A stretch of DNA of 64,000 nt from Trichoplax sp. H2 (taxonomy: Eukaryota): assembly GCA_003344405.1 (NCBI GenBank), contig NOWV01000122.1:124001-188000 (forward strand), given 5' to 3'. The notes below the pieces were generated by a model. That model was not told the origin of the DNA. It was given only the letters and a program-made list of their open reading frames with translations, and did no database searches. This document shows positions 1 through 26,351 of this stretch, in pieces; within the stretch, counting starts at the first letter, position 1; the number at the start of each line of letters is the position of its first letter. Made by a program: the position numbers and the translations under genes.

Positions 1-163
1 TACTTTCTGACATGATAATAATATAGTAGCCTGGCTGGATCATTTCTAAACTTATGTTCATATCCAATGGAACGCCAAGTGCTCAACAACTTCAACAGAC
101 ATGTATTATTAACTTCTCTTTCAATCCTACTATTTTCACCTTGTAGGTAGTTTTGGAGAGATA

Positions 164-3100
164 ATGGAGGAAGATCGATATAAAGTCGATGCTGTCGATG
201 CTTCTACTGTTTCTACTGCTGCTACTGCTGCTGCCGTTAGTATCCAATCCGGTAGTCAATTAAAGAAGCCAAAAATTCAAGTTACTCCATCGGAAATTAT
301 TCGTAAAGCCGACGCTGAAGCACGCTCGGTTAAAATGCAATCCAATGATGAAGTCGATACCATTAGGCGTAAAGCCAAATTAGCTGCCAAAAGTGTTCTT
401 TCCAAGTGTGATCAAGAGATTGATAAATTACAAGATCGTTATGATCGTAGAATCGCTATTATTGAAGGTAGAGCTGATGATAGGATTGCTAGGGTGATCA
501 GAGTTGCACAACAAGAAGCCAACGAAGCTCGAGCTGCTGGTAAGATGAAAGAAGCTAAAAAAATTATGGAAACAGCTGAAATTGAAATTAACAATTTACG
601 AGCTAAAGTGGATTTAGAAATTACTGAGTTAAAGCGTGAACATAACGACACCATTGCTGAAATGAAACGCCAAGCGGAACACGAAGCCAATCAAATTACC
701 ACCGAAGCAGAATTGGATGCCATTAAAATCCTAACTACTGCTCAAAGTCAATATACCTCTATCGTTATGGGAAGTAAAGCGGAAGCAGTACTCTTGCAAA
801 CCGATCCAGACAGCAAGCAAACTGCTTCTAGTAAGCCATCTTCTAAGGTGGAAAATAAGAAAGGAGCACAACCATCCGAACCAGCAGATACATTATTGTC
901 CCGTGCTGAAGGGAAAGCAGCAGCTATTGAATTACAAAAAAATGGCGAGGCTGAGGTAGCCTTAATTCAAGCTGGTGGTGAAGAAAATATTATACGCAAG
1001 AGAGCCATAAGTCGATTACGTGAAGAAGAAATTAAAAAATCCAGTTGTTCTGAAAGTGTTAACCTGTTAAAGAAGGAAGCCGATGCTATTATGGCTAGAG
1101 CGAAAGCTTCCGCTGCTGAAGCTATAGTTAATTCTGAACGAGAATCGGAAAGATCCAAAGGCTATGGCGATGTTACTACAGCGGTAAAAATGACTGCTAA
1201 TGGCACAATTGAAGAGGCAAGAGTGTTAGCTGAAGGCAAAAGTAGAGCACAACAGTTAAAAACCGATGCCAATATTGCAGCCATTACCATTGAAGCCGAA
1301 GAAAAAGCGGCGACAGTTTTAATCAAAGCTGAAGAAGAAGCGCAAATTATTTATAAAAAGGCAAGAGGAGAAGCGGATTCTATTCGATTGAAAGCAGAAG
1401 GTAAAGCGGAATCGATCAAAATTATTGCTGAAGCTCAAGCGGAGATTGCTGAAAAGAATGGCGATCCAGCCAAAGCGGAACAAATTCGAGCTTCTGCTCG
1501 AGCGGAAGCAGCTCAAGTATTAGCACAAGGCAATGCTGAAGCCGCTAAATTGTTAGCTAAAGCTAACATTGAAGCCAAGAAAGTAGAAACCAAGGCTAAA
1601 CTAGAGCATGCTAAATTGCTTTCTGATGTTCAAATTAAATCCATGAAACTGAAAGAAAATGCCGAAATACGATCGAAAGAACTAATTCACGATAGCGAAG
1701 TTGCTACTTTAACCATGAAATTGGAAGCAGATGCTAAAGTAGCTGAAATTAAAAAGGATTTTGTCTACGCTAGTCGATGTAAGGCAGAAAGTAAAGCACA
1801 AAGTAAAATTATGGCGATTAATGTTGAAAAAGAGTTGAAAGAATATCAAGCTAAAAATGCCATCAAATTAGTAGAATTAGAAGGTCAAAATCAACATGAT
1901 CAAGTCATGATTAGTGTCGAAGGCGAAGCGAGTATCATTATTGCTGAAGCGAAAGGAGAAGCGGAAGCCATACGTGAAATTGCCAATGCTAATGCAAATA
2001 TGGTTTTAGCTCAAGCTGAAAAAGAAGCCAACGATGCTCGAGCTGCTGGCAATGAAGCAAAAGCTAAAAAGATACTTGCTGAAGCTAATTATCAAGCTGA
2101 AATATTGAAAGCAGAAGCTGAAATTCAAGCTGTTCAAATATTAAGTGATGCCAAAATAAAAGCCAATCAATTACGCTCTGAAAAAGAAGCAGAAATTATC
2201 AAGCAATGCTACGAAAATGAAGCACGAGTTATAGGTGAAAATTTTACAAGTTTAGATGCTACTGGTGAGAAAGCAGGTAAAGTAAAGAGCGATGCAATTT
2301 TATTGAAAGCAGAAGAGAAATCGACATTTGTTGCTGTCAAAGCTGAACGAGAAGCGAAAGCTGCTGAAAATGATGGTGATCTCATTCGAGCTGCAGAACT
2401 GCGAGCAGAAGCTTGCACAAGTACTCATACCATTAAAGCATTAGCTCAAGCTGATGCCACCTTAGCTGAAGCTGAAGAGAAAGCCGAAGCTATTACAGCT
2501 CAAAGTGAAAGCGATGCTATGGCTGCTATTCGAAAATCAATCGGTGAAGCAGAATCAATCCTTGCTACTACTCGTGCTCAAGCTGAAAATGTTCGAATCG
2601 ATTATAAACGAAAATCCAATGAAATATTACAAAAAGCAAAGATACAATCGCAAAAGTTACGCGCTGAAGGGAAAGAAAAAGCTGCTGATGAATGCTTACG
2701 ACGAGGTGAAGCAGAAGCAGCTAAAGTTGCAGCTGAAGGTGAAGCAAAATGTGGAAAAATTAATGCTGAAGGTGCTGCTAAAGCCGATAAAGCTAAAATT
2801 GCTGGTGAAGAAAAAGCTGTTCAAATTAAAACCGCTGCTAAAGCCAAAGTTACCGAAATGATGCTAGATGCAAAAGCCAATGCCAACAAAGTTAAAGAAG
2901 AAGCCAAAGCGACAGCTGTTCGCGAATCCAATACTATCTTAGCTCGAGGCTATCGTAAATCGCGCGATGAAGTTAAAGCTGTTGCTTTACAAGCTGAAGC
3001 AAATAAGGAATATTCTAAACAGATGGAAAAAGCGCAATCAACGACAGCAAAATTACTTGCACAAAAAGATATTGAAGTAAAAGCAGTCAATGTTCAAGGA

Positions 3101-6100
3101 GAAGCTGAAATGGAAAGATTGAAAACTACTGCAGAAGCGGTTAGCGTTAAATCGCATGCGAAAGCTGCTGCAATCACTGCTATCATGGACGCAGCAGCCG
3201 ATACAGCGGTTAAAAAAATCAACCAAAAGAATGACCAAGTTATCCTACAGTCTGAAATGAAAGGGAGAGAAGATGCTGCTCGCTTATTAAAAGATGGTAT
3301 TACTGAAGCAACAAGGATGATTATTGATGGTGAAGAGAAAGCTCAACGTTTAAAAACTAAAGTAGCTATTGAAGCTGTCCGAGCTAGAGTATCTGCTGAA
3401 AGTGAAATATTACAATATACAGCGGATAAAGCTGAAGAGAAACGTGAAGGGATTCAACAATCGATTAAACAATTGACAGCACAAGCTGAACAAGAAATCA
3501 AGAAAGTCCTTACATCTGGTAATGAAGTTCGTGCTAATGCTATTCGAGAAGATTTAGCAACAAAAATTGAAGTGATGGAAGTAGAAGGACAAGTACTGAC
3601 CAAACATTTAAGTGAACGTGCTAAAATGGAAGCGGAACGTATCAAAATGGCTGGTAAAATTAAAGAAAATAAAATTTTAAAATTTGCCGAAGCTGATATT
3701 ACCATTGCTACTGCAGCAACATTAGCTGAAGCAAGCAAAGAGAAAGCAATTAAAGATGCTGAATTTGTCAAGAATAAATCTTTAGCTGAAGCCAATTTAG
3801 CTAAAAATAAAGGTGAAAAAGAAGAAGTTATTGATGCTATTATCAACGACGGTAAACAAGAAGCGGAAAGAATTACTAAAGATGCTGAAGTAATTTCATT
3901 ACGATTAATGGCAGAAGCACGCGCTAAAGCAACTAAATTAAGAGCCGAAGCAAGTGCTGAAGCTGAATTGTTAACCGCTGAACAAAATGCAGAAGTGTTG
4001 AAAAATCAAATGTCGGAAGCTGCCGATGCAGCGATTGTAACTGGCAAGAAAGAAGCTGCCAGCGTACGCTTAAAAGCGAAAGAAAATGCACGCGAATCGG
4101 ATTTACGCAATAAAAAGAATGCCGCTACTCGTGCATTAGTTAATGGTGAAATAGCTGCTGAAGTTGCCTTAACAAAATCAGTAACAGATTCTATCCAAAA
4201 ACGAGCTCATGGTGAAAATACCGCAGCGGTAACAACGATGGAAGGTAAAGTGAAATCGATTAAAACAATCACTCATGGCGATATTGAGGCTGTCAAGATA
4301 AAATATGATGGTAAAATTGCTGAAGCTCAACTTCTTGGCGATGTTACTAGAGTGGAAGTATTAAAATTACAACGTGATGCTGAAGTGACTAAAATTACAG
4401 CGTTATCCGCTGCTGAATTAAGTCGTGTCAAATCGGAAGAAGAAGCAGCATCGTTATTAGCACGACGTGAAGAAGAAGCTAAAGTAGCTAAATTAAAAGC
4501 TGATCAATGTCGAAGTGCTGAAAATGTCTTATTACTGGAAGATAAAGCAAAAGCGGATATTTCATCAGCCAATGAGTTAGCTCAATCGATACGTGATAGT
4601 GCTGATGAAAAAATCGATGCTGCATTAGCTGATGGTGATGGCGCTGAAGTTGAAAGAATTCGTTCACAAGCTGAAGTGAAAGCAATTAAAGCAGCAACAG
4701 AAGGAATCATCCAAGCTGTTAATCAAAAAGGTGAAGCTCGATTCAATGCTGCATCAGAAGAAGCCAAATTGGTTGCTGAAGCAGCTAAAATCAATGCAGA
4801 AGGTAAAGCATATTCAACAAGAATAGCTGCTAAAGGTGAAGCTAAATGTATACGTGCTAAAGCTGAAGCTGATGCAAAATATGTTAAAGAGATGTCAAGA
4901 GCAAAAGCGAAAGATTGCATGCGAAAAGGCCATGTTAGTGAAGCTGAAGAAGCATTACAAGCTGGTGAAGCTGAAGCAAAAAGGATAATTTCAGAAGCAA
5001 CGATTGCCGCTACAAATTTAATTGCACAACGTGAAGCTGAAGCTATACAATCATTATCAGAAGGTGGTATTGAGCATGAAAAATTAAAAATTGGTAATCC
5101 TGAAACCGTTATCATTAAAGCTGAAATTGAAGCTGAAGTAATGCGTAATAATAGCAATGGTCAAATAGAAGAATGTTTAATACAATCACAAAGTAAAGCA
5201 AGATTAACAACGATTGAAGCTGAAAGGAATGCTAAAGCAGCTTTCTTAGCTGGTGATGAAGCAAAAGCAGCTGAAATCATTCTACAAGGTCATATTGCAT
5301 CGGCTGAAATGATTGCACGAGGTCAAGCGGAAGCCAGTGATATTAAAGCAAAATGTGACGAAGCCATTGCTCTCAAGTTAGCTGATGCTAAAGCAGATGC
5401 TGTTAAATTAAGTTCAGAGAGAGATTCTATGGCTGCTGAAATTGAATCAGAGTTAAAAGTCAAAGCTTTCAAACTTCAAATTGAATCTGCTGCTCAAGCT
5501 GCTGCACGCCGTGGTGATCCAGAAGCTAAACGTTTAACCATTGAAGGTGATAAAAAAATAGCTACTTTAACCTCGGACAATGATGTCAAAGTAAAAGTAA
5601 TGCGTGCTGAAGGAAACGCTGAAGCAATACGATTACAAGCACAAGCTCAATCTGAAGTAGTTCTTATTCAAAGTAAAGCACAAGCGGAAAATATCCGACT
5701 TCAAGCTGATAATGAAGCAAAAGCAGCGATTGCTAAAGCAAAGCATCAAGCTGAAGCTACCCGACAACAATTAATTAATCAAGCCAATAAGGCTAAAGCC
5801 AATGGCAACGAAGATGAAAGTATCAAATTAAGAGCATCAAGTGAAGCACAAGCTGCTAGAATAATCGCTAAAGGTGAAGTGGAGGCTTGTAAAATTCGTG
5901 GTGAAGCCGTAGTCAAAGCATCAGAAGCAATCAATAAAGGGAAATTAGAAGAAAGTAGTATTCTCCATGAGGGAAGTGTTGAATATCATAAGATTAAATC
6001 AGAAGCTGAAGCCCATGCCTTACTTGATAATGATCTAGACAACAGAGCGGAAGAAGTTGCTGATCAAGGTGAAAAGGAAATTAAACGTTTACAACAACAA

Positions 6101-9100
6101 GAAGATACACATGCTGATATCTTACAGTATCGTGCCCAAGCTGAAATGATTATTGCTAATGCTGAAAAAGATTTAGCATGTGAAAAGATATTATTGGAAG
6201 CTGAAATTCAAGCGTCACGTATCGAGGCAGAAGGTAAAAGTTCAATTATAACTGCTAAAATGGACAGAGAGATTGATAATGCAATCGTACGTGGTGATCA
6301 TAAAGCTGCTATGGAAAGTAAAATGAAAGGTGAAATTGATTCAAGTCAAGTGAAGACTAATGCTAACATTGCAGCAATACGTAAAAAAGCAGAAATGGAA
6401 TCGAAAGCAGCGGCTACAATGGCTGAAGCTGAAGCAGAAGCAAGCCAGTTAAGAGCAGCTGAAGAAGCAAGGATTGCATTATCAAAAGATGACGAAGGCC
6501 AAGCAGCTCAAGCAATGGCCGAAGGAGAAGCTGTTGCTATTCTTATTCGAGGTGAAGGCCAAGCTAAATCTAAAATTATTAATTCTACTGCAGACGTTGA
6601 AGTATTACAAGCTGAAGCATCGATGAAGGCCGATGCTGTACAATTAAAAGCTGAAGCAGCCGCTCATAATGCTGAATTGAGTGGCAATTCGTTATTAGCC
6701 GCTGAAATTAGAGCTAAAGGAGATGCCGATAAAGCCGCATTAAAATTACAAGCTGATGCAGAAGCTGCAAAAGTCAATTCTTATGGTGAAGCAGAAGCTG
6801 TTTTAATTCAAGCAAAATCCAAAGAAGAAAGTATTTTATTAAGAGCGAAAGGAAAATCAGAAGAAATAAAAGCATTCGATGAAGAAGAAGCTAATCGTAT
6901 ATTAGATGAAGCTCAAAGAGACGCTGAAAAAGTGATAGCGGAAGGTAATGCAGAAGCTGAACGTTTGAAAAAATTCGGTGATACTGAATATACAAGGCTA
7001 CATGCTATGGCTACAATCGAATCAGACCGGCAAATTGGTCGTGGTCGAGCTCAAACAGTGAAAGAGAGCGGAAAAGAAAAAGAAGCTGCTGAAATTGAAG
7101 GTCAAGTTGAAGCTAAAAATGTAACATCTAGAGCTGAAATAGAAGCCAATGCAGTTAAAAAACAAGCGGAAATTGAAGCTGCTAATATTCGATCACAGGC
7201 CGAGGCTCGTGCCATAGCTGTAGATAAAACTGGTAATAGTAGTGAAGCCGAGAGAATTCGTCGAGATGGAGAAGTCGATGCAACTAAAGCTCTCGCTATT
7301 GGCATGATCGAAGCTGATAGAATTATTGCAATTGGTAAGCTTGAAACTGAGTTGGAATTCGCAATGGCTAAAGTTCAAGCAGCTAAGCTTAAAGGAGATA
7401 AAAATAGTGCCATTCGACTTACAGCAGAAGCTGAAGCAAAAGTTTCTGAGCAAACTAAAATTCTCGATGCAGAAGCGTTATATCAACGTACGGAAGAAGA
7501 AGCAAAAGCATTACAGCGTAAAGGACAAAACGAGATTCAAGCGATTAAAAAAGCAGCTAAACAATATGTCAATAACGCTAAATCAAGTGGTAGTACTATG
7601 GCTGTATCAATTGTTACTGCTCAAGCTGAAGCAGAAATTAATCGAATTGAAGCAGCTAGAAAAGCAGAAGCGGAAAGATTATTGACAAAGGCTAACGCTG
7701 AAAAAACACTTATAAATGCTGAAGGTAAAGTTGAAGCAATCAAAATGATCGCCCGTGGTGAAGCAGATATAGCTGAATTACTGGATGATAATAAGAAAAT
7801 TAAACAAGTTTTAAATACCGCAGAAATGGATTGTGCTAAAATATTAGCCCAAGCAACACAAGAAGCTTCACGAATTGCTGCAGAGGGCGAAGCTAGTGCT
7901 ACTCAAATTCATGCTCAAGGTTTTGCAACATCGGAAAATATTAAAGCGACAACTAATTCAACCGAAATTGAAAATCTTGGTATGAAACATAAGGCGCAAA
8001 GTATAAAAGAGGTTAAAAATGCAGAAACTAAAAGTACAGTTAAATTAGGCAAAATTGAAAGTATAAAAACACAAGAAATTGCAAAAGCTAACGCTGACAA
8101 GCAAGCTGTTGAGCGTGAAACAGAAGCTTTAAAATCGAGCGGAAATGAAGAGCAAGCTATCCTTAAAAAAGCTCAAAGTGACGCAAATTATATTATTGCT
8201 GTTGCTGCAGCTGAAAGTAAAGCTCTTCAAGCCAAAAGTTTAACTCAAGTTGCTGTTGCAAAAGCGGAACTAGAAAGTAAAATCAAGTTAAAGAAAGCGG
8301 AAAAAAATGAAAATGCTATTACTGAAATGACAGGTGAATTAAAAGCAATTGAAATTTTAGCACAAGCTACCGCTGAAATTGATGGTACGTTACAAAATAA
8401 ATTAGCAAAAATTGAAGCCGAAAAAATTATTGCTGAAGGACAAGCTGCAGTAATAAGAATGAAAGGTAATCCAGTGAAGGCAGCAGAGATGACAGCACAG
8501 ATCCAAGCTAAAGCGATTAAAGCAGCTGCTAAAGCTAAAGCGGACGCTCTCAAAAATAAAGCACAATATGAAGCTAAAGCTGAAAAGATAGTAGCTGAAA
8601 GTCGTACTAATGTAGCGGAACGTTCAGGTGATAAAACCAAAGCTGACCTGACCAAAACAGTTGGTGATATTAAAGCCGGACGAATAATAGCTCTTGCTGA
8701 AGCTCAAGCTTCCCAAATTGTTGCAGAAGCGGATGCTGAATCAGATAAGCTAGTTCAATTAGGCAAGGCTGAATCGCTTAAACATAAAGGTGATGGGGCT
8801 GAAGTGAAACAATTACATGCCAAAGCAGAATCCACCTGTTTAAGAGTAAAAGCAAAGGCTTTAGCCGATGCTATTAAAATTAAGAATGAAGTTGAAGTGG
8901 AATCTAAACGCCAAATTGCAATTGCTGAGTCGAAAGCTGTTCGAGCAAACTCAGAAAAGAAGGCAGCTAATTTGGCCAAATCGAACGATAAGATTAATAG
9001 TAAAAAAGCAAAAATTGAAGGAGATATTCAAGCAGCACGTATAATGGCAACTTGGGAAGCTGAAGCAATTACATTAAAAGCGTTTGCTGAATCCGATGCT

Positions 9101-12100
9101 TTACTAGCAACATGTGAATGTGATGCAGCTACGATTGATATCATATCTTCGAATCAGGCTGATCAAATTAATGATGATGGTAATCCATCGAAGGCAACTA
9201 TTTTAAAGAAAGAAGGTGAAGCAGAATCGAAGGGAAAGCGTATCGAAGGTAGATTAGAAGCTGATAAGATTAAAATACAAGGAGATTGCGAAGTGATCCG
9301 ATTAAAAGCTGCAAAACAAGCTGATAATATAAGATTAACAGCAGAGATGCATGCACATTCAGCTGAAGCTGCTAATAATCACTCTGATGCAATCCGCATT
9401 AAAGGTGATGCACAATATGATGCCGCAAAATTTCAGTGCAATGAAGAGATTAAGGCAGCAAAGATGAAATGTCAAGCAAGTGTTGAATCAATACGTAAAA
9501 ATACTGCCAAAAAGATTGAAGCAGTTAAAGTTAGTAGTGAAAGAATTATGGAAGTGCATTCTGTATCAGGTGATGCAGATGAAGCTACTAAACAGCGAAA
9601 GTATTATTTAGGTAAAATATCTGTTATTGAGGCGGAGCAAGCAGCAAATGTAGCTATTGAAAAAGCTGAAGAAGAAGCTGCAATAATAAAAGCTGAAGCG
9701 AAGATAAAAGCAGCACATGTCATTCAAAATGCAGCAAATCAAGCAGCGGAACTATTAAAGCAAGGTAAAAAATTACAAGCCCAAAATATCACTAAACTTG
9801 CTGAAGAGGAAGCTGCTAAAATATCGCGTTTGGCTGAAATTGAAGCTATCAATGTTAGAGCTATCGCAGAAGCAGAAGCTTTAAGATTAGTAGGCAAGGG
9901 AAAAAGTGAGGCGGCACAAATTGAAGGAGATAAAACTAAAGCTCAAAATGAATTATCTGACGCTAGAGCTAGAGCATATCTTATTGAAGCAAACAGTAAA
10001 GCAACAGTAGTGAAAAATACTGCCGAAACTGAAGCCAATTATATATCAAGATTAGCTGAACTTGAAGCTCAAGATGATATCGAGCGTGGTAACGAAGAAG
10101 CTGCTTCCATTAAAATTTCTGAAGCGGAAGTAGAAAGTAATAGAATAAAAGGTGTAGCAGCAGTTGTGGCTGATAATATTATAGCCATTGGTGAAATTGA
10201 TTCAGCATCACAAAAAGAACTTGTAAAAGCCGAATTCTTACAAGCTAATGGCCAAGAAGCTAAAGCTATCTCGGCGAAGGCTGAAGCTTTATCTGATGCA
10301 ATTACCAAGAAAGGTGAAGTTAACGTTACTAAAGAACAAGAACTATTACAAGTTGAAGTGGCGGCTGCCGTACAGAAAGCAGTTGCCAATATTGAAATAG
10401 CCAAGAGTAAAAATGATCAAATTGAAGCTGATAGAATGCTAAAACTTGCAAAATTAGAGGAAGAGAAACTTAGAAAAATCTCGAAGATTAATAGCGATAA
10501 AGTTAAGAAAATATCTGTTACTGATGCCAACCTCTGTAAAGCCACTGCTGAAGCAAATATTGCTAAAGTTAAAGGTGATGCTAACAAATATAGTCAGTTG
10601 ATGAAAGATGCAATTACTACAGCGGCAAAGAAGAAAGCTTCAATCGAAGAGCACGCTCTTAAAGCTTTTTTAGAAGTTAATGTTGCTGATGTACAACAAG
10701 TAGCTAAAAGTAATGCTATTGCTGCAAATCAAAAACATGACAAAGTAGAAGCTGATAAAATTAAAGCTGTGAGTAAGGCCAAAATTGAAAAATTGCAAGC
10801 TAGTACTTCTGCTGAAATTGCTAAATTTCAAGGGATTGCTGCATTGGAAATCAAAGTTAGTAAAACCCTTGCAGAAGCTGGTGTTCACGAAATTAAAGGC
10901 AACAAGACTCGAGCTATTATTACAAGGTCTGAAGCAGAAGCAGAAAAAATAAGACTTACAGCTGATGCAGAAGGAAAACTTGTCGAGAGATTAGCTGAAA
11001 TTGACGCTGAAGCTATAAGAATTTGTACAAAAGAAGACGGTAAAGCAGCAAGATTACATTATACACAACTTGCGAAAAAAGAGCAAGCCGCGGGAAATCT
11101 CTTAGAAGCTGAAAAATTAAAAGCTGAAGGTGAAGCACAAGCATACATATATAATCACCAAGCTGAAATTGAAGCAAGCAAAGCTATAGCTAAGGGAGAA
11201 GCTGATGGCCTAATAGTAAAGGCAACCGGAAATGCGGAAGCTACACAAAAAATATTTGATGGCCAAGCGGAAGTCGCTTCGATCGAAGGGAATACACTAA
11301 AATCAAATACATTAATTAATAACGGCAACGAGGCTTCAATCTTGATCTTGGCGGAAGCTAGTGCCAAAAGAGAGAGAATATTGGCTAAAAATGAAGCGGT
11401 GTCAATACGAACGACTGCTGCTGCAGCGGCGGAAGGGAATAAATTACGAGTTAACGCTGAAGCTGACAATGCCAGAGTTTTGGGTGATAATGTTAAAGCA
11501 GCGCAATTAGATGGCAATTGCGTAGCTGAATATTGGCAAACAGTACGCCTTGGTGAGATCGAATCCGAAAAGAGGCTTGCGCTTCTTGACGCTGAGGTAG
11601 AAATGATACATTCTAAACGTAAGAGTGACTTATCAAAAGCTCTTGGCGATGAAGTTGGTGCTAAAGTCATCATTGAAACTGGTAAAGTTCAATATGAACG
11701 TGCGAAAGCAGAAATTGAAGCAAAGTATGCTAATTTAATTGCAGAAGTCCAGGTTGATGCGACTCTTCAGAAAGCACAGTCCGATGCAAAAGCAGCAGAT
11801 AAACATGGAAAAGCAGAAGCTGCCGATGAATTCCGACAAGCGGGTAAAAATTCAGCTTTTAGCCTCAGAAGAAATAGTGTAAAGCTGCAGCATAAACGTC
11901 AAGGTGATGCTCAAGGTAGTAAATCTAAAGCGGAAGCGCTACGTAAGGCTGAAGAAATTTTATCTAAAAGTAAAAAGTTGGCTGATGGTAGTAGACAAAG
12001 CAATAATTATAGCAGTGCAGTAAAAATTTCAGCAGATGGCCGCGCTAAAGCAATTGATGTTGTCACTACAGGTGAAGCTCGAGCAATTTTAGCATATGCT

Positions 12101-15100
12101 AATGCAGAAGTAAGAATCGCAAAAGATAAAGGTGACGATAAAACAGTTATACAAGCTAGAGTATTAGGTGACCAAGAAGCTGCTAAGTTGCAGGCCTTAG
12201 GTGAAGCGGAAGCACGACGTTTGAATCTGGTGGGTAAAGCTTCAGCATTAAGATTAGATTCACAAAATCAAGCCAATATATTAGATAAAAAGACACTTTC
12301 CGAAATTGAAGCAGCACGTGAAGTTGGTAATAAAGTTGGAGCAATTAATGTACAAGCTGATGGTCATATACGTAAAGAGCAATTACTTGTAGAAGCAACT
12401 GCAGAAGCTATCAAAATTGAAGCGTTAGCAGAAGCTGAATTTTATAGAATCAAAACCTTAGGAGCAATTTCAGCCGCTCAAACTGCAAATGACACATTAG
12501 AAGTCTATAAATTGGAAACATCATCTAAAATCGAAATTGAAAAATTGAAAACAATGGGTGAAATTGAAGCCAATCGTGTCATTGCTATTGGTGAAGTTAA
12601 TAATCAAAATATAAGAGATGAAGCTGAAATCAACAAGGCTGAATTAGCTGGTGATACTGATCGAGCTGATAGATTAAAAGCAGAACATGAAGTAAAAGAT
12701 ATCCAATGGAGAGCCAAAGCAGAAGCAGAATCAGTTAAAGCTAAAGCTGAGCTTAATGCAAAACTAACTATCTTAAATGCTGAAAAAGAAGCTGAGATTA
12801 AACGTCGAGAAGGCGATGAGAAAAATGCACAGCAGATATTAGCTGAAGCTAAAGCAACAGCAAAATGTATACGTGCAGATGGCGATACAGAAGCGACTAG
12901 AATTTTAGCTCTTGCTAATGTTGATTGTGAAAATGTGAAAGCATTGGCTGAACTAAAATCATCGCAAAAAGTTCTTGAAAATCAAATTAATAATGCTGAG
13001 GCTACAGATCAAAAGAAAAATGTAATTCGATTGAAAGCATCACAAGAAATTAATGATGTTTTACAAAAAGCAACAGCAGATGCGAAACGAATATTTGGTA
13101 TTGCCGCTGCTGAAGCTAATGGAGTTAAAGCCGCGTTAGATAATAAAAGTAAATCTGTGGATGATAAGATGGAACAAGCGAAACTGCAAAAATCATCGAA
13201 ATTGGAATCGGAAAAGATAAAATTTATTGGAAATGCTAATTCGACTAAAGCTAATATTCTTGGTGAAATTGAAGCCGAAAGGATCAAAGCTTACAGTGAA
13301 GCAGAAATTGCACGCGTAGATGACAATGAAGAAATTGCAATCCGTTTAGAGACGGCTGCTGATGTCAAGGCAGTTAGGCTTGAAGCAGAAGCTAAAATCA
13401 AGAATGTTAAGGCAGTTGCCTTACAAGAAGCTCAATTTGCAGCATTAAAAATGGAAGCTAATGCAGAACATGCACTCGCAAAAAATGATGAAATTGAAGC
13501 AAATAACCTTAAATACCAAGGTCAATTGGAAGCGCAATTAATTATTAATGTAAGTGATATCGACTCAGCCTTACTAACTAGGTTAGCCGAAATAGAAGCT
13601 AATAAAGTTAGTTTGTTAGAAAAATCAAGAATATCTAAATTGGATAATGATAGTATTGAAGTAGAGAAAGAAATAACTGCAGTTGAAATCAATGCCATCG
13701 AACGAAAAGCTATCGTTAAAGCTGATGCGATGAAAGCGAAAGCTAAATTAAAAGCTGAAGCCGCAAATGAGATTGCCCACAGTAATGCTCAAGCAGCACT
13801 AAAAAAAGGAGATAAAATTTTAGCTGAAAGATTCATTTTGGAAGGTGAAGCGGAATCCAAAAATATTATTGCTAGGAGTGAAGTAGAAGCAGAAGAAATT
13901 CTCGCTTTAGCAGTTGCGGAAACGCAAGAGCTAAAGGCAAATTTAAGCGTGATTATTGCTGAAGTAGAGGATAAAGGAGACCATGAAGCTATCCAATTGG
14001 AAAATGAAGTTAACATTCTTCGAGCGAAAACTAGTGCAGAGGTAAATTACATACTAAAAAGTAAAGAGCTAGACGCACAAGTCTTTGAAGCAAAAGAAAA
14101 ATTTAAAGCTGAAGAATTAGAGAAAAAGGGCAATGCCATTGAAGCTACAAAAATGAGAGCTTACGCCGCCGCTGAAACAAATAAAATTCGTGCCCTAGCT
14201 GATGTTGAAGCTAAGCAGTTACAAACAGAATGTGAAATTGATGTATTAAAAACTCAGGCAATTACTAGAGTTGCCAAAGCAAGACAGTCAGGAGATGCAG
14301 CTAAGGCAATCAATATTGAGACAGAGATGAATGTAGATACAGTCTTATTAGAGACTGCAACAGAAATAGAAAGTATTAGGGCAGCTGCTAGAGCAAACGC
14401 TAATTTGATTATTGAAAAAGCTAGAGCGGATGTAAATGCACTACAATCTCAGTATAATCTAAAAATAGCTCAGGCTAAAGCTAATAATAATATCGAAGAA
14501 GCAGATTCATTGCAAAAGCAGTGTTCTACGGAAGTCTTGGAAATTATTTCAAAAGCTGAAGCTGATGCCTGCATGATTGAAGAAGATGCTAAGGCTGATT
14601 GTGAACGTTTAGAAATGGCATGCAAAGCAAATATTGTTAGACTTAAGGCCGCAAGTTCTGCAGAGAAAGCACGAAATGAGGGTAAATTTGCAGAAGCTGC
14701 TCAATTTGAAATTGATGGTGAGAAACAAGCATTAGAAATAGAGATCGAAGGTGAAATTATTGCTGCAAGAATTCGATCAGAGGCCAAGGCTCAAGCCATC
14801 CTAATTAAATCGAAGGCAGAAGCAGCTGCAGCTAGATTATCAGGAAATGATATGAAAGCGTCAAGAATACTTGCTGAAGGCGAAGCTTTAGCTAATAGCA
14901 CTATTACGGAAGGAGAAGCAACAGCTGATAAATTAAAGCTGGAATTAGCAATCAAGCAATCACAACTTAAGAACGGCTACAGAGAACTGGGTGCCATTGA
15001 AGCTGAATATAAATCAAATACCGAACAAATAAGAGCCGATGGTAGAATAAATGAAATTAGAATGCGCGCTACAGTAGATGCAGAAGCTGCAGTTTTAAAT

Positions 15101-18100
15101 GCTGAACGAAAAGCTGAGGCTGCTAAAGCTTCTGGAAACCATCACGAAGCTGAGCATTTAATCGCTGAGGGTAAAATAAATGCGAAGAAAGTTGTAACTT
15201 TAGCTGACGCCGAAGCTGAACTGTTGAAAGCATTAGATGAAGCTACTACAAATTTAACCCAAGTTAAAGCTCAAGTTGCAGCTCTTAAAGCTTCTGGCGA
15301 TGAAGAGAAAGCAATCAGGATGGAACTCCAAGCTGAAATACGTGCGGCAGAACTCAGAGATGCTGCTAGGATAGCTTATACCAGAAAAAAGGCAAAAGCC
15401 GATTCAGATGCTATTCGTGCTCTTGCTAACAGTAGTGCAGAATTAGCCCGTAAGCAAGGAAATGCAGAAAAAGCAGAAATGATATTAAAGGAAGCAAATA
15501 TTAAACTGAAAGAAGTTGAATTAATCGCTGAAGCAGAAATTGAATCAATTCTGACTGATGGATCGATTCAAAATGAGCTAAAGAAATCATTGGCAGAAGC
15601 GGCGATTGCTAAACTTAAAGGTCATAAGCAAGATGCTGTCAAGCTACAATATGCAGGTGAAGCAAGGGCAGCTATTCGGTCTTCAGAAATTAAAAGTAAT
15701 CTAGAAAAGACAAAGGCCGGCATTTTTGCTGATACAATTTTGCAGCTTGCTGAACTGAAAGCCGAAGAAGCAAAAGCTAAGGGAGATAATGTAGAAGCTG
15801 ATAAAATACTAGCTGAAGCAATGGCCAAAGCAGAATTAAAAAGAGCTTTAGCAGAAGCTGACGCTTTCGAATTAACGTCTGCTGGTAAGATAAATGCAAA
15901 TAGAGCAGAAACAAGTACCGCATCGGAAATCGCAAAATTACGCGGCGATCTGAAAGAATCTAACAAATTACAAACATCGAAGGAGATTAAAACTGCAAAA
16001 CAAACTGCTACAATGCAAGAAACAGTCGCTCAAATGCGCGCTGATGCTAGGGCTAAATATAATGAAGCTTCAGCTGCAACTGCAACCGCAGCATTTAAGT
16101 CAAAAAGTGATGAGATTAACGCTGAAGTTGCTTTAGCTATTAACAAAGCAGATAATGCGAAAATAGCAACCCTAACGAAAATTAAGGGTGACTTACAAAA
16201 GAAATTAGCGGACATTGAAACTCAAAGGCTATCAAAGTTAGGAGAAGCTGAAGCACTTCGATTAAAAGGAGAGATTGAAAAAGCTGATCAGATAGTTATG
16301 GAAGCGAACGCCAAAGCTGCTGTTGAGAAAGCTGAGGCCCAGTCTGCGTCCGTAAGGGCCTCTGCTGAAGCTGAAATTTTATATAACAAGCAATTAGCTG
16401 AAGCTAGAGCTACTGCCGCTAACAAATTAGGAGACCGACAGAAAGCAAATATGATCTTAGCTGAAGACGGTATAGAAGCTACATGTGTCAATGATACTGC
16501 TGAAGCTGAAAGTACGTTAATTGAGAAATTAGCAGACATCGAATCAGAAAAGATATTAAAACTAGGTGAAGCAGCAGCTGCTGCAGCTATTGGCGAAGAT
16601 GAGAAAGCAATTAGGCTAATTGCCACATCTAAAGCTAATGCAGCTAAAAAAGCCGCAGAAGCTAGAGCAGCTTTTACACTGATGCAGGCAGAAGCTGAAG
16701 TCAAAAAAGCGAACAGTTTAGCGAGAGCGGCTACCAAAAATGCGGCAACAGAAATTGAGACTATTGAGGCGAAAATGTTAAAGAATACCGCAGAAGCTCA
16801 TTCAAATTGTATCCAAGATGTAGCAGAAGCTAAGGCATCCCGTGCGATCTTACAGGGTAATGTCGAAGGTCAAGAATTTCATGCTATAGCTGATGCGGAA
16901 ATAGTTCTACTGAAACTTAAAGCGGGTGATATAGCTGAAGATGAGTGTAGAGAATACAAAACAGAAGCAGAAAAGATCAAAGTTAGCAATAAAGTTAATA
17001 AATTATCTACAATTACAAATGAAGATATCCGCGTATCCGATACTATTGCAAAGTCAAAGGCCGAAGAAATTACGAAGACTGCTGTAGAAAAGGCTCTAGC
17101 AGCTAGATCTAAAGCACAATGGATGGCGGCTGAAGCAAGACGTAAAGGAGAACAAGAGCAAGCCGAAGAAAAATCAAAAGACGGTGAATTGGAAGCAATT
17201 AAGTTAAATGCTGAAGGCGAGGCAGAAGCTGTAATTCTACTAGCTGAAGGTGAAGCGGAGGCTGCTGAATACAGTTCAGAATGCGATGCAGCGACTGCTC
17301 TAGCAAAAGCCAATTTTAGAGCTGAAGAAGCCAAACTATATGGTGATGTGGAGAGAGCGATAGAGATTAATAAAGAAGCTGCTGATGATGCTCTTAAATT
17401 TAGAGCTGCAGGTAAAGCCAAAGCAATACGTATCAGGGTCGAAAGTAAAGCACTAGCTGCCATGATAAAATCTGAGGCAGAAGCTGAAATTGCTAGAATG
17501 GTAAATGATGAAGAGAAAGCCGAGGAATTGATTGCTGATGGATTAGTTGAAGTAGAGTTAATAAAATGTGAAGGTGAAGTTGCTGCTGAAAGGCTTCTTG
17601 CTGATGCTGATGTTGCCATATTGCGGAAGAAAGGCCTAGAAGCAGAAGCGGTCACCTTAATAGCTGAGAAGGAAGCACTTATTGCTCGAATAATTGCTGA
17701 AACTGAATCTAGAATTGCAGCTATTCGAGGTAATAAAGAACGCGCTAAGAAGATCATTGCTAAGAATGAACAGTCATCTAAAATGGTTTTCACTGTTGGT
17801 GATATCGCTGCTAAAAATTATCGAATGCGACAAGGCGTATTTAGGCCTAAGCCAGGTCCAAAAGGTGGTCGATTAAATGATATCGGTAACAAAGATTACT
17901 TTTCTCGTGATGGTCAACGTAAACTCGGTCCACCGTTTAATGATAGAGGAATTGGCGATATAGGCACTAAGGCTTATCGATTAAGGGATGGAGATAAGCA
18001 AGACAATCTTTATAAGCATAGAGATCATGATCTACTTGACATTGGAACAAAATTATATCGATTCCGTGAAGCTATCGTAGTGAAAAAAGCTGCTCCGCGG

Positions 18101-19946
18101 ATCTCAGTTGATGACCGAATTAAATTAGCTCAACAAAGATTAATAGAGTTAGAAATGAAGCGACAAGAACACGCTGAACGAAAGCGTGTCCAGAGAGAAG
18201 AGCGAATTAAAAATCTAGATGCTCATAAGCGAGGTTATAAATAATTATAATTTGCTGTTATTCTTAGCTTGTTAAAAGGTTATTGAATAGTTATATTGCT
18301 AATATTTACTGTAGGGTATAATACTTATTTATGTATTGATTAATTTTTACTTCTTATCAATTTCTAATCATTTATGATTTATTTATAGCGATGCGCTTAA
18401 AGTATAAGAAGAGAATAGTTAAGAAACCCCCAGAAAAGTTACAGCCTACCCTACCACCGACAGCGAATGATATGGAGAAATTGATGAAGCAACGAAGACT
18501 TTCTAGGAGATTATCCAAACCTAAGTTGATTAAGGAAAAGACGGAAGTAATTGTTCCCGAAGAGCCACCTAAAGAGCCTGAAGTTGTTGAGGAAGAAGTC
18601 AAGGTTGAAGGTAATTTTTGATCTAAGCGGGTAGTAATTCATATTAAAATTATACTACAAACTCCTTCTGTTACATTTTGTAAAATGAATCGTAATTATA
18701 TTTACTATAATTTAATCGTCTACAGAAAAAGATGAGAAGGCAGAGGAAGCAAAGAGAATGGCTGAGGAGGCCGAAGCCGCTCGCAAACTAGCAGAAAAAG
18801 CAGCTATTGAAGCAGGTACATATTTAACGAATTTTAATTTAAGTAATGTAATTATAAAAGATTTCAATCTAATGTTTTAGTTAGAGCAATTAAATGAAAG
18901 AATTAATTAAATGGTATAATGGTCAACTATATTGAAAATTGAAATTGTAAACGATTATGTTAATCTTAAGTGTTATAAAATGGCACTAGTTGATCGAATT
19001 TCGAATAAGGTGTGTATTTAATTTCAATAGCTAGTGAAAAAGAGAAAGAAGAAGCAGAGGAAGTTCTTAAAGTGGCTGACTCTCAAGCTCGAGCGCAGAA
19101 AAATAAAGCCCTTCGAGCTAATCTCGCATCTGCCGTCTCTGCTCGCGATAGAGTAAAGATTGAAATCGCCATTGAAGAAGTCACACCACTTGTTGAAGAA
19201 ATCCCAGAAGTAAAGGAAGAGATAGATGACGCTACGAAGGTTTACAAACGTTTGACTGGGCAACATTTGGTCGACGTTGCTATTGAAACCCGGAAAATGC
19301 CCGATGTAGAAAAAGCTGTCATTTACGTTAAAAAGGAAGGCTTAGAGGAATTTATTGGTGAAAAATTCAATTATGTTTCCGACGTTTATGGTCGATTGAA
19401 ACGGTTGGAAAAGATGCGACAAGAAGTTGTCAACTTAAAGCAGACGAACGTTGCTGAAATTCGTAGTTATCAGAATCCTCATCCTTCAGTCCGCAATATT
19501 ATGATTGCAACTCACATATTATTGGGACACACTGAAAAAGAGGTTCGTAATTGGAAAGTTATGCAGGCTTTGATTGGTAAAACTGGCAAACAAGGATTAA
19601 AAAGACGTGTCGATGATTGCGATACCGATAATATTCCTCTTCAAGCAGCAAAGAAAGCGCAATCTCTCATTAAAGGATTAGATGTTGATTCTGTTCGTGA
19701 TATTAGCGGTGGAGCTGGTGTTTTCTTTGGTTGGGTATGTATAAAATGTTTATAAATGTATACGAATTAATTATACCTATAGAAATATCTTAAAGATGTT
19801 TTGAAGTCTCTATTTATGCATCATTTATCAACTCTGCATTATTATTGGAGTTGATCAACATTAGAACTTACTATTATTGCTGTAAAATAATTTAGGTCCA
19901 AGGTACTGCCGAAGTGGTATTTACAAGGGAAGAGAAAATTGGTTAA
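164..19946 (+). CDS. Giant (~6378 aa) Ala/Glu/Lys-rich alpha-helical/hendecad repeat protein with C-terminal dynein-stalk MTBD-like domain. Exons 164(147)-18233, 18389-18610, 18726-18815, 19031-19734, 19896-19946
   Basis: The 6026-codon ORF is followed by four GT-AG introns whose phases all match (1,1,1,0), giving 19137 nt ending ...FFGW|VQGTAEVVFTREEKIG*. A polypyrimidine-tgtag acceptor at 145-146 is followed by in-frame codons to ATG 164, so the gene may start upstream of the window. Confidence 0.85.
19423..19910 (+). other. Dynein heavy-chain microtubule-binding-domain (stalk tip)-like domain, split by intron 19735-19895
   Basis: EVVNLKQTNVAEIRSYQNPHPSVRNIMIATHILLG...NWKVMQALI...DTDNIP...SVRDISGGAGVFFGWV follows the MTBD pattern L-x-K-x-(D/N)-x-x-E-(I/L)-(R/K)-S-x-x-x-P-(P)-x-x-V...LLG...W...(D)xxNI...V-x-x-x-S-x-A-x-x-x-x-x-W-V. 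Recognised by eye, not by HMM. Confidence 0.7.

Positions 19947-21931: not shown

Positions 21932-26351
<4,420 letters not shown>

What the first reader, a model, noticed from the sequence alone, without database searches (positions are those of the whole stretch)
164..19946. Giant motor-less protein: ~6000-aa helical rod capped by a dynein MTBD-like domain
Seen: splicing joins the 18-kb A/E/K-rich exon to small exons ending in a domain with the dynein stalk-tip MTBD signature. No AAA+/Walker A motif is visible anywhere in the window. Known: in dynein this domain binds microtubules at the end of an antiparallel coiled-coil stalk. I recall a similar C-terminal module in invertebrate hillarin/KY-like proteins (unverified), so a transglutaminase-like N-terminus could lie upstream. 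Inference: this may be a very long microtubule-anchored tether or spring (up to ~0.9 um if fully helical at 0.15 nm per residue), e.g. a ciliary-rootlet or contractile-cell cytoskeletal element.
Basis: partly seen in the sequence, partly recalled or inferred. Interest (0 to 1): 0.9.

Follow-up and report, generated by a model that had tools for sequence, protein, structure and literature searches.

The report
Giant repeat protein with motor-less dynein tip
An invertebrate animal gene makes a 690-kDa protein in which about 5,900 residues of a previously undescribed helical repeat end in a copy of the small domain that dynein motors use to grip microtubules, with no motor attached.

Summary
Window 113..18244 is one open frame of 6,043 codons. 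With the ATG at 164 this gives at least 6,378 aa and 690.6 kDa.

The last ~250 aa are homologous to the dynein stalk tip. A family profile hits dynein heavy chains in the PDB down to E 7.4e-16. A pLDDT 96 model superposes on dynein microtubule-binding domains at Z 10.6-15.2. The protein ends 16 aa after helix H6, so there is no return coiled coil, and no P-loop motif lies in the gene.

The module has 540 relatives. They sit at the C-terminus of animal KY/transglutaminase-like, CLCA-like, CARD and charged-helix proteins.

The rod matches no known family. It consists of 11-residue repeats broken by about 75 'K-G-D/N' kinks. AlphaFold2 folds a sample as ~50-residue helices packed back on each other, not as one 0.9-µm helix.

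Microtubule binding, the true N-terminus and the cell type remain untested.

The parts
147..163 (+). First 17 nt of the giant exon, after an AG acceptor at 145-146. Either 5'UTR or coding; the frame is open.
   Evidence: RNA contigs in X1 and X7 carry 24 and 61 letters before place 145 that lie nowhere in window 1-20000 (table 7). The sequence was read.
164..18233 (+). Giant coding exon (18,070 nt, 6,023 codons) from ATG 164 to the donor GAG|GT at 18233.
   Evidence: ORF; contig X1 record 2 covers 145-18231 with 4 differing letters; joint 18233|18389.
191..17812 (+). Rod, residues ~10-5883. Degenerate 11-residue repeats of the type (A/G)-E-A-E-A-I-R-I-K-A-E, interrupted by ~75 'K-G-[DN]-x-x-K-A' kinks spaced 10+11n residues apart (43, 54, 65, 76, 87, 98, 109).
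   Evidence: Autocorrelation and Fourier peaks at 11 / 10.8 / 54 / 108 residues. 85 repeat-HMM matches cover 5,475 of 5,900 residues. Column frequencies, kink spacings. No DNA-level tandem repeat except one 62-nt row.
17801..18088 (+). Basic linker with four copies of a 'D-I-G/A-x-K-x-Y/F-x-x-R' motif, 26-27 residues apart (residues 5880, 5906, 5932, 5959).
   Evidence: 4 copies here, 0 of 176 family proteins carry the motif. Linker plus next exon has pI 10.2. Three of the four motif copies lie within the relative's 144-aa fragment P0182 and are kept there, at 77% identity overall. No Pfam family.
18234..18388 (+). Intron 1 (155 nt, GT..AG). An in-frame TAA lies at 18242-18244 if the intron is retained.
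   Evidence: table 5.
18389..18610 (+). Exon (222 nt). Basic, Pro-containing spacer.
   Evidence: joints on both sides in X1, X5, X7; translation; no Pfam family.
18726..18815 (+). Exon (90 nt). E/K/A-rich helix.
   Evidence: table 5 (joints 18610|18726 and 18815|19031).
19031..19344 (+). First part of the C-terminal module: helices that pack into a bundle ahead of the CC1-like helix (model helices 2-37, 40-55, 60-86, 89-102).
   Evidence: AF2 model m057083137fa2, pLDDT 96.3. The region is alignable across the family. Its resemblance to spectrin-type bundles is only Z 7-8.
19345..19734 (+). CC1-like helix plus dynein MTBD-like six-helix core. Conserved family motifs are IAEIRSY..P, GKTGK.(S/G)LKRR and S.GA..F..W.
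   Evidence: Family profile against PDB: E 7.4e-16 to dynein heavy chains. VIA: 3err Z 14.4 (rmsd 3.6 over 129), 6kjo Z 12.7 (2.8 over 118), 6rzb Z 11.5 (2.5 over 122). Foldseek: 6kjn rmsd 2.3 over 115 columns. Single-sequence phmmer: 19 of 20 hits are dynein.
19896..19946 (+). Last coding exon: 16 codons that finish helix H6, then TAA at 19944-19946. No room for a CC2 return helix.
   Evidence: Joint 19734|19896 in X1, X5, X7; sequence; translation.
19947..20000 (+). Start of the 3'UTR. The X1 contig has about 600 nt more than was laid, so the transcript probably ends near 20600 (inferred).
   Evidence: table 8: X1 record 2 is 19,807 nt long, of which position 19,210 lies at window 20000.

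Best explanation
Shown: this is one expressed animal gene. It encodes a protein of at least 6,378 aa (690.6 kDa) with three parts.

(1) Residues ~10-5883 are a sequence-orphan array of 11-residue A/E/K/I repeats, punctuated by ~75 conserved K-G-D/N kinks.

(2) About 240 residues follow that are strongly basic and Pro/Gly-containing, with four short D-I-G-x-K-x-Y motifs.

(3) The last ~250 residues are a C-terminal module homologous to the dynein stalk tip. A CC1-like helix leads into the six-helix microtubule-binding domain, but there is no CC2 and no AAA+ motor.

Inferred:
- The kinks read as a Gly C-cap followed by an Asp/Asn N-cap. They cut the rod into roughly 75-110 helices of ~40-100 residues. 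These fold back on their neighbours into long antiparallel bundles.
- The rod would then be a segmented, possibly extensible strut of roughly 0.1-0.3 µm, not a 0.9-µm single helix.
- In the C-terminal module the helices upstream of CC1 take the place of CC2. The MTBD would then be held in one fixed register and act as a constitutive, nucleotide-independent anchor.
- Together with the basic linker it would fasten one end of the giant strut to microtubules, either cytoplasmic or axonemal/basal-body associated. The protein would work as a very large structural microtubule-associated tether.

Microtubule binding itself is inferred from homology only.
For: Gene and splicing:
-. 3 of 4 runs show all four GT..AG joints, and one 19.8-kb contig spans them all.
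- A relative keeps the linker at 77% identity and the module at 87-88%.

MTBD homology:
- The family profile gives 75 PDB sequences at E<=1. The 60 shown are dynein heavy chains or their stalk/MTBD constructs, best 7.4e-16, matched at the stalk.
- The model has pLDDT 96.3 and pTM 0.82.
- 11 of the top 12 VIA rows are dynein stalk/MTBD entries at Z 10.6-15.2, against <=8.2 for unrelated rows.
- 4 of 34 long relatives hit Pfam MT, best E 6e-6.

No CC2:
- The protein ends 16 aa after H6.
- In 132 of 165 family proteins at most 30 residues follow the module.

No motor.

Rod segmentation:
- Kink spacings are 10+11n, with G 60% and D/N 65% at the kink columns.
- The AF2 model has pLDDT 92.9 and pTM 0.80, with helices 5-55, 59-109, 113-153, 156-206, 210-260 and 264-314. 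The breaks lie at the kinks.
- Residues 155-315 superpose on compact antiparallel three-helix bundles with 137-168 aligned residues at rmsd 3.3-5.7.

Basic linker: pI 10.2. Basic disordered segments next to a folded microtubule-binding domain are common in microtubule-associated proteins (general knowledge).
Against: - Nothing here shows microtubule binding. I did not map dynein's tubulin-contact residues onto the module.
- The family has its own invariant basic insert (GKTGK..LKRR) where dynein differs, which could mean a different ligand.
- In relatives the module follows CLCA/VWA, EGF-laminin, CD20 and CARD domains. It may therefore be a general adaptor.
- The single sequence is below Pfam's cut-off for MT (13.4 against 24 bits). 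Foldseek found no match at E<=1e-3 for the whole 235-aa model.
- The rod model rests on an alignment made from the protein's own 17 repeat segments. It covers one region chosen for regular spacing, and I could not inspect its coordinates.
- Its best structural matches (Z 9-11.4) are below the ~13 that the tool's note says helical bundles can reach by chance.
- About half of the kink-to-kink segments are 74 residues or more and may behave differently.
- The N-terminus is not defined.
Confidence: 0.5

Rival explanations
1. The dynein-tip fold has been re-used for another partner. The module would be a general C-terminal docking domain, for example for another filament system such as septins, for a membrane-associated partner, or for self-association. 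The giant protein would not be a microtubule protein at all.
For: - The module is fused to very different N-terminal domains: Ig-like_KY 17, Transglut_core 12, VWA 3, CARD 3, CLCA 2 and CD20 2 of 34.
- It has a family-specific invariant basic motif that the aligned dynein sequences lack.
- It lacks the CC2 helix that dynein uses to set affinity.
- A passage of PMC3081291 states that hillarin, a KY-related protein, acts through septins. Whether hillarin's W180 domain is this module was not tested.
Against: - The six-helix core superposes on microtubule-bound dynein MTBDs at rmsd 2.5-2.6 Å over 115-124 residues (6rzb, 6rza, 6kio).
- The profile match covers the whole MTBD, including the helix H1 motif.
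- The linker beside the module is basic, as in many microtubule binders.
Confidence: 0.3
2. The rod is not a strut. It would be an array of amphipathic 11-mer helices of the apolipoprotein / perilipin / LEA / BAR kind that coats membranes, lipid droplets or vesicles, or protects against desiccation. The C-terminal module would tie that surface to microtubules.
For: - 11-residue periodicity.
- The best fold matches are BAR, F-BAR and eisosome domains and apoA-IV, at Z 9.7-11.4.
- The closest sequence-like PDB entries are the membrane-cage proteins HflC (E 0.0095) and flotillin-2 (E 0.82).
Against: - No Pfam match to LEA_4, apolipoprotein, perilipin, BAR or Flot models at E<=1 on the three 2,000-aa thirds, or at E<=10 on two 400-aa pieces.
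- The Z values are in the range that helical bundles reach by chance.
- The HflC score carries high compositional bias.
- AF2 folds the fragment as a self-contained bundle with pTM 0.80, without any lipid.
Confidence: 0.12
3. One reading: the rod is one essentially continuous alpha-helix or two-stranded coiled coil of up to ~0.9 µm. The 10-residue kink units would be only local skips, as in the myosin rod.
For: - Very low Pro (17 of 6,023) and helix-favouring composition.
- Periodicity is coherent over the whole length: the 10.8-residue peak is 60 times the median.
- Many kink-to-kink segments are 74-142 residues long.
Against: - Gly (60%) is followed by Asp/Asn (65%) at a fixed position of the repeat. 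This is a helix stop/start signal by general knowledge.
- AF2 breaks the helix at every kink of the sampled region and packs the helices back on each other.
Confidence: 0.08

Closest known systems
Dynein heavy chain stalk tip / microtubule-binding domain (middle of Pfam PF12777 'MT'; PDB 3ERR, 6RZB, 6KJN/6KJO, 6RZA, 5AYH)
   Same: Homologous CC1-like helix plus six-helix MTBD. Profile E is 7.4e-16; Z is 10.6-15.2 with rmsd 2.5-3.6 Å over 113-129 residues for MTBD-only entries. Shared motifs include I.EIR(S).(K/N)PP..V and the Trp at the start of H3.
   Different: No AAA+ ring, linker or tail. No CC2, so no antiparallel stalk and no register switch. A three-residue insert with an invariant basic motif lies after H3. 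The single sequence is below Pfam's gathering score.
C-terminal module of invertebrate KY / ltd-1-like transglutaminase proteins (e.g. Pinctada KAK3098481.1, Branchiostoma 'KY' CAH1267353.1, Pecten XP_033763426.1)
   Same: The same ~230-aa module (28-40% identity) at the extreme C-terminus.
   Different: Those proteins are 700-1,900 aa with Transglut_core and Ig-like_KY domains. Neither domain is found in the 6,378 aa seen here. Upstream exons could not be examined.
'Trichohyalin-like' proteins of echinoderms, molluscs and corals (Apostichopus PIK57548.1, Plakobranchus GFO37104.1, Acropora XP_074636624.1)
   Same: The closest named relatives of the module (35-39% identity). They share the design principle of a long charged helical region followed directly by the module.
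   Different: They are only 540-670 aa. Their helix is E/K/R-rich, not the A/E/K/I hendecad with G-D/N kinks. They also begin with a globular N-terminal domain.
Coiled-coil wall helices of SPFH-family cages (HflC, flotillin-2)
   Same: The nearest thing by sequence to the rod repeat: Ala/Glu-rich helices. 5 of the 13 PDB hits at E<=10 are HflC or flotillin-2.
   Different: E is only 0.0095-1.1 with strong compositional bias. There is no SPFH domain and no Pfam Flot or Band_7 match. Homology is not shown.
Long antiparallel three-helix bundles (BAR/F-BAR, eisosome Lsp1, apoA-IV, spectrin-type rods)
   Same: The fold of three successive rod helices (Z 9.7-11.4, 137-168 residues aligned). The general idea of a giant rod made of tandem helical bundles.
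   Different: No sequence relation. Helices are ~50 residues against ~30 in spectrin. The repeat is built from hendecads. The Z values are within the chance range for helical proteins.
Free-standing, motor-less dynein MTBD genes of protists (earlier scan note e1-644575, unchecked)
   Same: The dynein tip is used as an independent building block without a motor.
   Different: Those are small stand-alone genes in protists. Here the domain caps a 690-kDa animal protein and belongs to an animal family with its own upstream helices and motifs.

Membership tests
Dynein heavy chain | Ring of six AAA+ modules with P-loops | tested here: not met
   No Pfam AAA or dynein motor family on the three 2,000-aa thirds of the ORF or on the last large exon. 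No [AG]x4GK[ST] in the gene; the 3 matches elsewhere in the window lie in 12-51-codon frames. Exons upstream of the window were not seen.
Dynein heavy chain | Six-helix microtubule-binding domain fold | tested here: met
   (Z 10.6-15.2; rmsd 2.5-3.6 Å over 113-129 residues).
Dynein heavy chain | Antiparallel CC1/CC2 coiled-coil stalk carrying the MTBD | tested here: not met
   The protein ends 16 residues after H6. In the AF2 model the CC1-like helix packs on upstream helices instead.
Dynein heavy chain | Binds microtubules at the tubulin intradimer interface | not testable with these tools
   No tubulin sequence of this organism was available, and the complex tool offers only bacterial, archaeal and phage references. 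It needs a bench assay.
Pfam PF12777 (MT, dynein stalk) | Score at or above the gathering threshold (24 bits) | tested here: not met
   13.4 bits, E 0.04, protein 127-203 against profile 93-169 of 344. 4 of 34 relatives hit at E<=0.01, best 6e-6. Homology is nevertheless shown by the family profile.
Motor-less MTBD module of animal KY-like and other proteins (no Pfam entry of its own found) | ~230-aa module made of upstream helical pairs, a CC1-like helix and the MTBD core, with motifs IAEIRSY..P, GKTGK..LKRR and S.GA..F..W | tested here: met
   540 relatives at E<=1e-3, 206 at <=1e-10. Invariant E, P and W columns in the 52-sequence alignment.
Motor-less MTBD module of animal KY-like and other proteins (no Pfam entry of its own found) | Position at the extreme C-terminus | tested here: met
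   Here 16 residues follow H6. In 132 of 165 family proteins at most 30 residues follow the module, and in 155 of 165 at most 60.
KY / hillarin / ltd-1 transglutaminase-like proteins | Transglutaminase-like core (PF01841) and KY Ig-like domain (PF23265) | tested here: not met
   Neither was found in the window's 6,378 aa. They could in principle lie in exons upstream of the window, which could not be examined.
SPFH family (HflK/C, flotillin) | SPFH/Band 7 domain followed by an Ala/Glu-rich coiled coil | tested here: inconclusive
   No Band_7 or Flot Pfam hit. The rod profile hits the HflC coiled coil at E 0.0095 with high bias and flotillin-2 at 0.82.
11-mer amphipathic repeat proteins (LEA group 3, apolipoproteins, perilipins) | Match to the family's Pfam models | tested here: not met
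   No such family at E<=1 on three 2,000-aa pieces or at E<=10 on two 400-aa pieces. 11-residue periodicity is present, but HMMER's bias filters may hide weak matches.

The most novel reading that the evidence does not exclude
Animals from sponges to chordates carry a family of motor-less dynein tips that has not been described. Each would be locked in one register by its own upstream helices, and would serve to plug very different proteins onto microtubules: transglutaminase-like KY proteins, CLCA-like membrane proteins, CARD proteins and charged helices.

This gene would be the family's extreme member. Its 5,900-residue rod would be a new kind of giant protein, a chain of ~100 hendecad-built helical hairpins that could unfold or slide as a spring between microtubule arrays and whatever the undefined N-terminus binds.
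Probability: 0.3. Interest if true: 0.8.

Novelty: new variant of a known kind. Interest (0 to 1): 0.66.

Why it matters
The dynein microtubule-binding domain is usually treated as part of the motor. Here it is the C-terminal cap of a 690-kDa non-motor protein and of hundreds of other animal proteins.

If it still binds microtubules, it defines a new class of microtubule-associated proteins. It would also offer a natural 'always-on' version of the dynein tip, without the stalk register switch, for structural and biophysical comparison.

The rod has no detectable relative by sequence, Pfam, language-model features or solved structure. It is still regular enough (hendecads plus fixed kinks) to be a tractable model for how giant helical proteins are built.

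My four topic searches of the paper library found nothing on the module outside dynein or on such a rod. The W180 word search listed nothing relevant among the 10 rows shown. Subscription journals are not covered.

Tried and rejected
Rod homologues:
- The search for homologous proteins on residues 2001-2600 found nothing at E<=1e-3, with 'near' lengths (1,026 candidates scored) and with 'shorter' (7,999 candidates). Common Ala/Glu words may have crowded out true relatives, so this is weak evidence of absence.
- ESM Atlas with residues 2001-3000 gave a best feature score of 0.76, to a bacterial hypothetical cluster. That is not meaningful.
- phmmer of the same 1,000 aa against PDB sequences gave one hit, TACC3 at E 0.041.
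- Pfam gave only sub-threshold noise: ZMYND8_CC, PgaA_barrel, CarA_N, HrpE, DUF4670, PGBA_C, RPC5_C.

Rod alignment and self-association:
- A first self-alignment with overlapping tiles (A3) came out staggered and was not used.
- Self-association of a 315-aa rod fragment (complex prediction, 2 copies) scored 0.21 against a mark of 0.32. The verdict was 'no answer', so it is not evidence either way.

Genome and earlier notes:
- A search of the window's own genome for the upstream exon failed because no genome is held.
- Earlier scan notes by place and by sequence returned nothing.

Other checks:
- Tandem Repeats Finder on 1-20000 gave only one 62-nt row at 9246-9307. The protein repeats are therefore old and diverged at DNA level, not a recent expansion or an assembly artefact.
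- The Walker-A scan gave 3 chance matches outside the gene.
- Run X2 shows no splice joints; it looks like DNA or unspliced RNA.
- Loose ends inside the giant exon at 1671 and 12775 are 21-nt touches of an unrelated 1,796-nt contig, not splicing. The other internal loose ends (474, 3683, 3922, 6006, 8391, 10800, 12064) were not followed up (tables 7-8).

Literature:
- 'MTBD-like' + dynein gave 2 TTLL11 papers (listing only).
- hillarin + microtubule gave 3 papers. I read passages of PMC3081291 only.
- 'W180' as a whole word matched 1,242 papers. None of the 10 listed was relevant.
- dynein heavy chain / coiled coil stalk / transglutaminase-like / kyphoscoliosis gave 0 papers.
- hendecad + giant protein gave 0 papers.
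- For PMC6629372 I read only passages. They did not list enough contact residues to map onto the module.
- The identity of PDB chain 7jtk_C was not resolved (listing only).

Considered and rejected: 'chance ORF or not a gene' (ruled out) and 'dynein pseudogene fragment' (the module is conserved, spliced, expressed, and belongs to a 540-member family).

Full report
1. THE OBSERVATION

The + strand holds a stop-to-stop frame at 113..18244 of 6,043 codons. An ATG lies at 164 in a good context. In DNA of 36-41% G+C a frame of this length cannot be chance.

I laid contigs of four public runs on window 1-20000.
- Three runs (X1, X5, X7; two of them on record as RNA) carry the joints 18233|18389, 18610|18726, 18815|19031 and 19734|19896, all GT..AG.
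- In X1 one contig of 19,807 nt runs from 145 through all four joints to beyond 20000.
- X2 shows no joint; its contig runs through the introns.
- The share of words held by the best runs (0.71-0.79) fits a transcript without the introns.

The spliced CDS from ATG 164 is 19,137 nt, giving 6,378 aa, 690.6 kDa and pI 5.9.

Two runs carry 24 and 61 letters in front of position 145/147 that lie nowhere in window 1-20000. So there is at least one upstream exon outside the window. The frame stays open through the 30 letters shown, so the N-terminus is not defined. No genome is held for the window.

2. THE C-TERMINAL MODULE

Sequence evidence:
- The 235-aa translation of 19033-19737 hits Pfam MT (dynein stalk) only weakly: E 0.04, 13.4 bits against a cut-off of 24. 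The match falls on the right part of the profile.
- A search of 1.84 billion representatives found 540 relatives at E<=1e-3 and 206 at <=1e-10.
- A profile of 52 of them (A2) searched against all PDB sequences gave 75 hits at E<=1. The 60 shown are dynein heavy chains or stalk/MTBD constructs, matched at the stalk tip. The best is 7.4e-16, to DNAH6.
- The last 130 aa alone, as a single sequence, give 20 hits at E<=10, of which 19 are dynein, best 0.014.

Structural evidence:
- AlphaFold2 on A2 gave pLDDT 96.3 and pTM 0.82.
- Foldseek found no match at E<=1e-3 for the whole model, but rows 1-46 are dynein or axoneme entries. The yeast MTBD superposes at rmsd 2.3 Å over 115 columns.
- VIA-align gave Z 10.6-15.2 for 11 dynein stalk/MTBD entries among the top 12. 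Examples are 3err at Z 14.4 (rmsd 3.6 over 129) and 6rzb at Z 11.5 (rmsd 2.5 over 122). Unrelated rows reach at most 8.2.
- The twelfth entry is a radial-spoke chain, 7jtk_C, at Z 12.1. I did not resolve its identity.

What differs from dynein:
- The protein ends 16 residues after helix H6. In 132 of 165 family proteins at most 30 residues follow the module. There is therefore no CC2 and no antiparallel stalk.
- In the model the CC1-like helix (residues 110-133) packs on four upstream helices.
- The family has an invariant basic stretch, GKTGK..LKRR, where dynein is three residues shorter.
- I infer that the module is a register-locked, nucleotide-independent version of the dynein tip. High- and low-affinity yeast structures match equally well (Z 13.6 against 12.7, a tie), so the state cannot be told.

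3. THE FAMILY

I looked up 30 clusters.
- Taxa named: molluscs, an annelid, a brachiopod, an echinoderm, a hemichordate, amphioxus, tunicates, a coral, two sponges and an orthonectid.
- Names given: 'KY', 'kyphoscoliosis peptidase-like', 'ltd-1-like', 'KY-like immunoglobulin-like domain-containing', 'trichohyalin-like', 'calcium-activated chloride channel regulator 1-like' and 'CARD domain-containing'.
- None is named hillarin.

Of 34 long relatives scanned with Pfam:
- 17 carry Ig-like_KY and 12 carry Transglut_core.
- 4 hit MT (best E 6e-6).
- 3 carry VWA, 3 CARD, 2 CLCA and 2 CD20.

The closest named relatives, from Apostichopus and Acropora (38-39% identity), have a globular N-terminal domain, a long E/K/R-rich helix and then the module. 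This is a miniature of the present design.

Unnamed fragments at 87-88% identity for the module (P0002, P0152) and 77% for the linker (P0182) show that at least one related species has the same gene with the same exon ends.

4. THE ROD

Composition and periodicity:
- Residues 1-6,023 are 19.6% Ala, 12.7% Glu, 11.4% Lys and 8.2% Ile, with 17 Pro.
- Identity autocorrelation peaks at lags 11, 54 and 108.
- Hydrophobic residues and Gly both show a Fourier peak at 10.8 residues, about 60 times the median.

Repeat structure:
- An HMM iterated on the protein itself finds 85 matches covering 5,475 of 5,900 residues, from residue 10 to 5883.
- The unit is an 11-mer of the type (A/G)-E-A-E-A-I-R-I-K-A-E. 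A special 10-residue unit carries K-G-[D/N]-x-x-K-A, with Gly in 60% and Asp/Asn in 65% of copies.
- I located 75 such kinks. Their spacings are 54 (15 of 74), 65 (13 of 74), then 76, 87, 98 and 108-109, that is 10+11n.
- At DNA level there is no tandem repeat apart from one 62-nt row. The array is therefore old.

No relatives found:
- Pfam.
- PDB sequences.
- Two database searches on residues 2001-2600.
- ESM Atlas.
- A profile of 17 rod segments gave only marginal, bias-laden hits: HflC at E 0.0095 and flotillin-2 at E 0.82, to the Ala/Glu-rich wall helices.

Predicted structure:
- I ran AF2 on a 315-aa stretch with regular spacing, using those 17 segments as the alignment (A4). It gave pLDDT 92.9 and pTM 0.80.
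- The model has six helices: 5-55, 59-109, 113-153, 156-206, 210-260 and 264-314. Each is separated from the next by 2-3 residues at the kinks.
- Foldseek found nothing at E<=1e-3.
- The exhaustive VIA search aligned residues ~155-315 (three helices) to compact antiparallel three-helix bundles: BAR, F-BAR, Lsp1 and apoA-IV. Z was 9.7-11.4 with 137-168 residues aligned at rmsd 3.3-5.7.
- These Z values are within the range the tool's note gives for chance among helical proteins. They show an arrangement, not kinship.

My reading is inferred:
- The G-D/N kinks are helix stop/start signals, and successive helices fold back on each other.
- About 75-110 helices of ~7.5 nm would give a strut of order 0.1 µm if stacked side by side, or about 0.3 µm as end-to-end three-helix bundles. 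Neither is 0.9 µm.
- Caveats: the alignment is made of the protein's own repeats, one favourable region was modelled, I could not see the coordinates, and half of the kink-to-kink segments are 74 residues or longer.

5. THE LINKER

Residues ~5880-5975 hold four copies of D-I-G/A-x-K-x-Y/F-x-x-R, 26-27 residues apart. None of the 176 family proteins has the motif, but the three copies that the related species' fragment covers are kept there. Linker plus next exon has pI 10.2 and no Pfam family. A basic, probably disordered segment beside a folded microtubule-binding domain is typical of microtubule-associated proteins (general knowledge).

6. HOW IT MOST LIKELY WORKS

Shown: an expressed giant protein with an orphan helical repeat rod, a basic linker and a motor-less dynein-tip homologue at the very C-terminus.

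Inferred, at about 50%: the C-terminus anchors the protein constitutively on microtubules, and the rod is a segmented, possibly extensible strut whose other end (the undefined N-terminus) binds something else.

Rivals:
- The module binds a non-microtubule partner (about 30%).
- The rod is a membrane- or lipid-coating 11-mer array tied to microtubules (about 12%).
- The rod is one continuous helix or coiled coil (about 8%).

7. COMPARISON AND NOVELTY

- It works like the dynein tip but is not a dynein. The motor and the antiparallel stalk were tested and not met.
- It is a member of the animal motor-less MTBD-module family, which has no Pfam entry of its own in the copy searched. My literature searches returned no paper on that family.
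- It is not shown to be a KY/transglutaminase protein.
- The rod is new by every test available here.
- I rate it a new variant of a known kind. Nothing about cell type or function has been tested.

8. ELSEWHERE IN THE WINDOW

Downstream of the gene lie satellite-like tandem arrays, a diverged ~6-kb duplication and a single-exon rhodopsin-type GPCR.

Noticed in passing
window 57904-59010 (-): Single-exon ORF of 368 aa that matches Pfam 7tm_1 (rhodopsin-family GPCR) at E 5.6e-30 over the full 260-position profile. It is the only other clear gene seen in the window.
   Followed up: partly
window 24166-25471, 26488-28304, 29520-30647: Three blocks of satellite-like tandem repeats, with periods of about 195 nt, about 400-600 nt and 162 nt. 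They lie in the two G+C-richer stretches just downstream of the giant gene.
   Followed up: no
window 33414-35434 and 39552-41177: Five direct-repeat families all spaced about 6.1 kb apart at 75-83% identity, which suggests a diverged ~2-kb segmental duplication.
   Followed up: no
window 44163-44751: Three copies of a 76-nt repeat and a 75-nt perfect-hairpin inverted repeat (44429-44503 / 44505-44579, 97% complementary, 1 nt apart). Possibly a small mobile element or a satellite.
   Followed up: no
window 18242-18244: An in-frame TAA lies 9 nt into intron 1. A transcript that retains this intron would give the whole rod without the basic spacer and the dynein-like module. Run X2's contig runs through the intron, but it may be DNA.
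   Followed up: partly
model m057083137fa2, residues 70-235 (window 19240-19737): A chain of the Chlamydomonas radial spoke 1 structure (7jtk_C, residues 438-576) matches the module at Z 12.1. A Toxoplasma intraconoidal-microtubule protein (9ya2_L) matches at Z 8.1. Other non-dynein proteins on microtubule structures may therefore share this fold. The proteins were not identified.
   Followed up: partly
window 3454-17817 (-): Several antisense ORFs of 105-312 aa lie inside the giant exon, for example 16879-17817. They are probably by-products of the Ala/Glu/Lys codon bias rather than genes.
   Followed up: no
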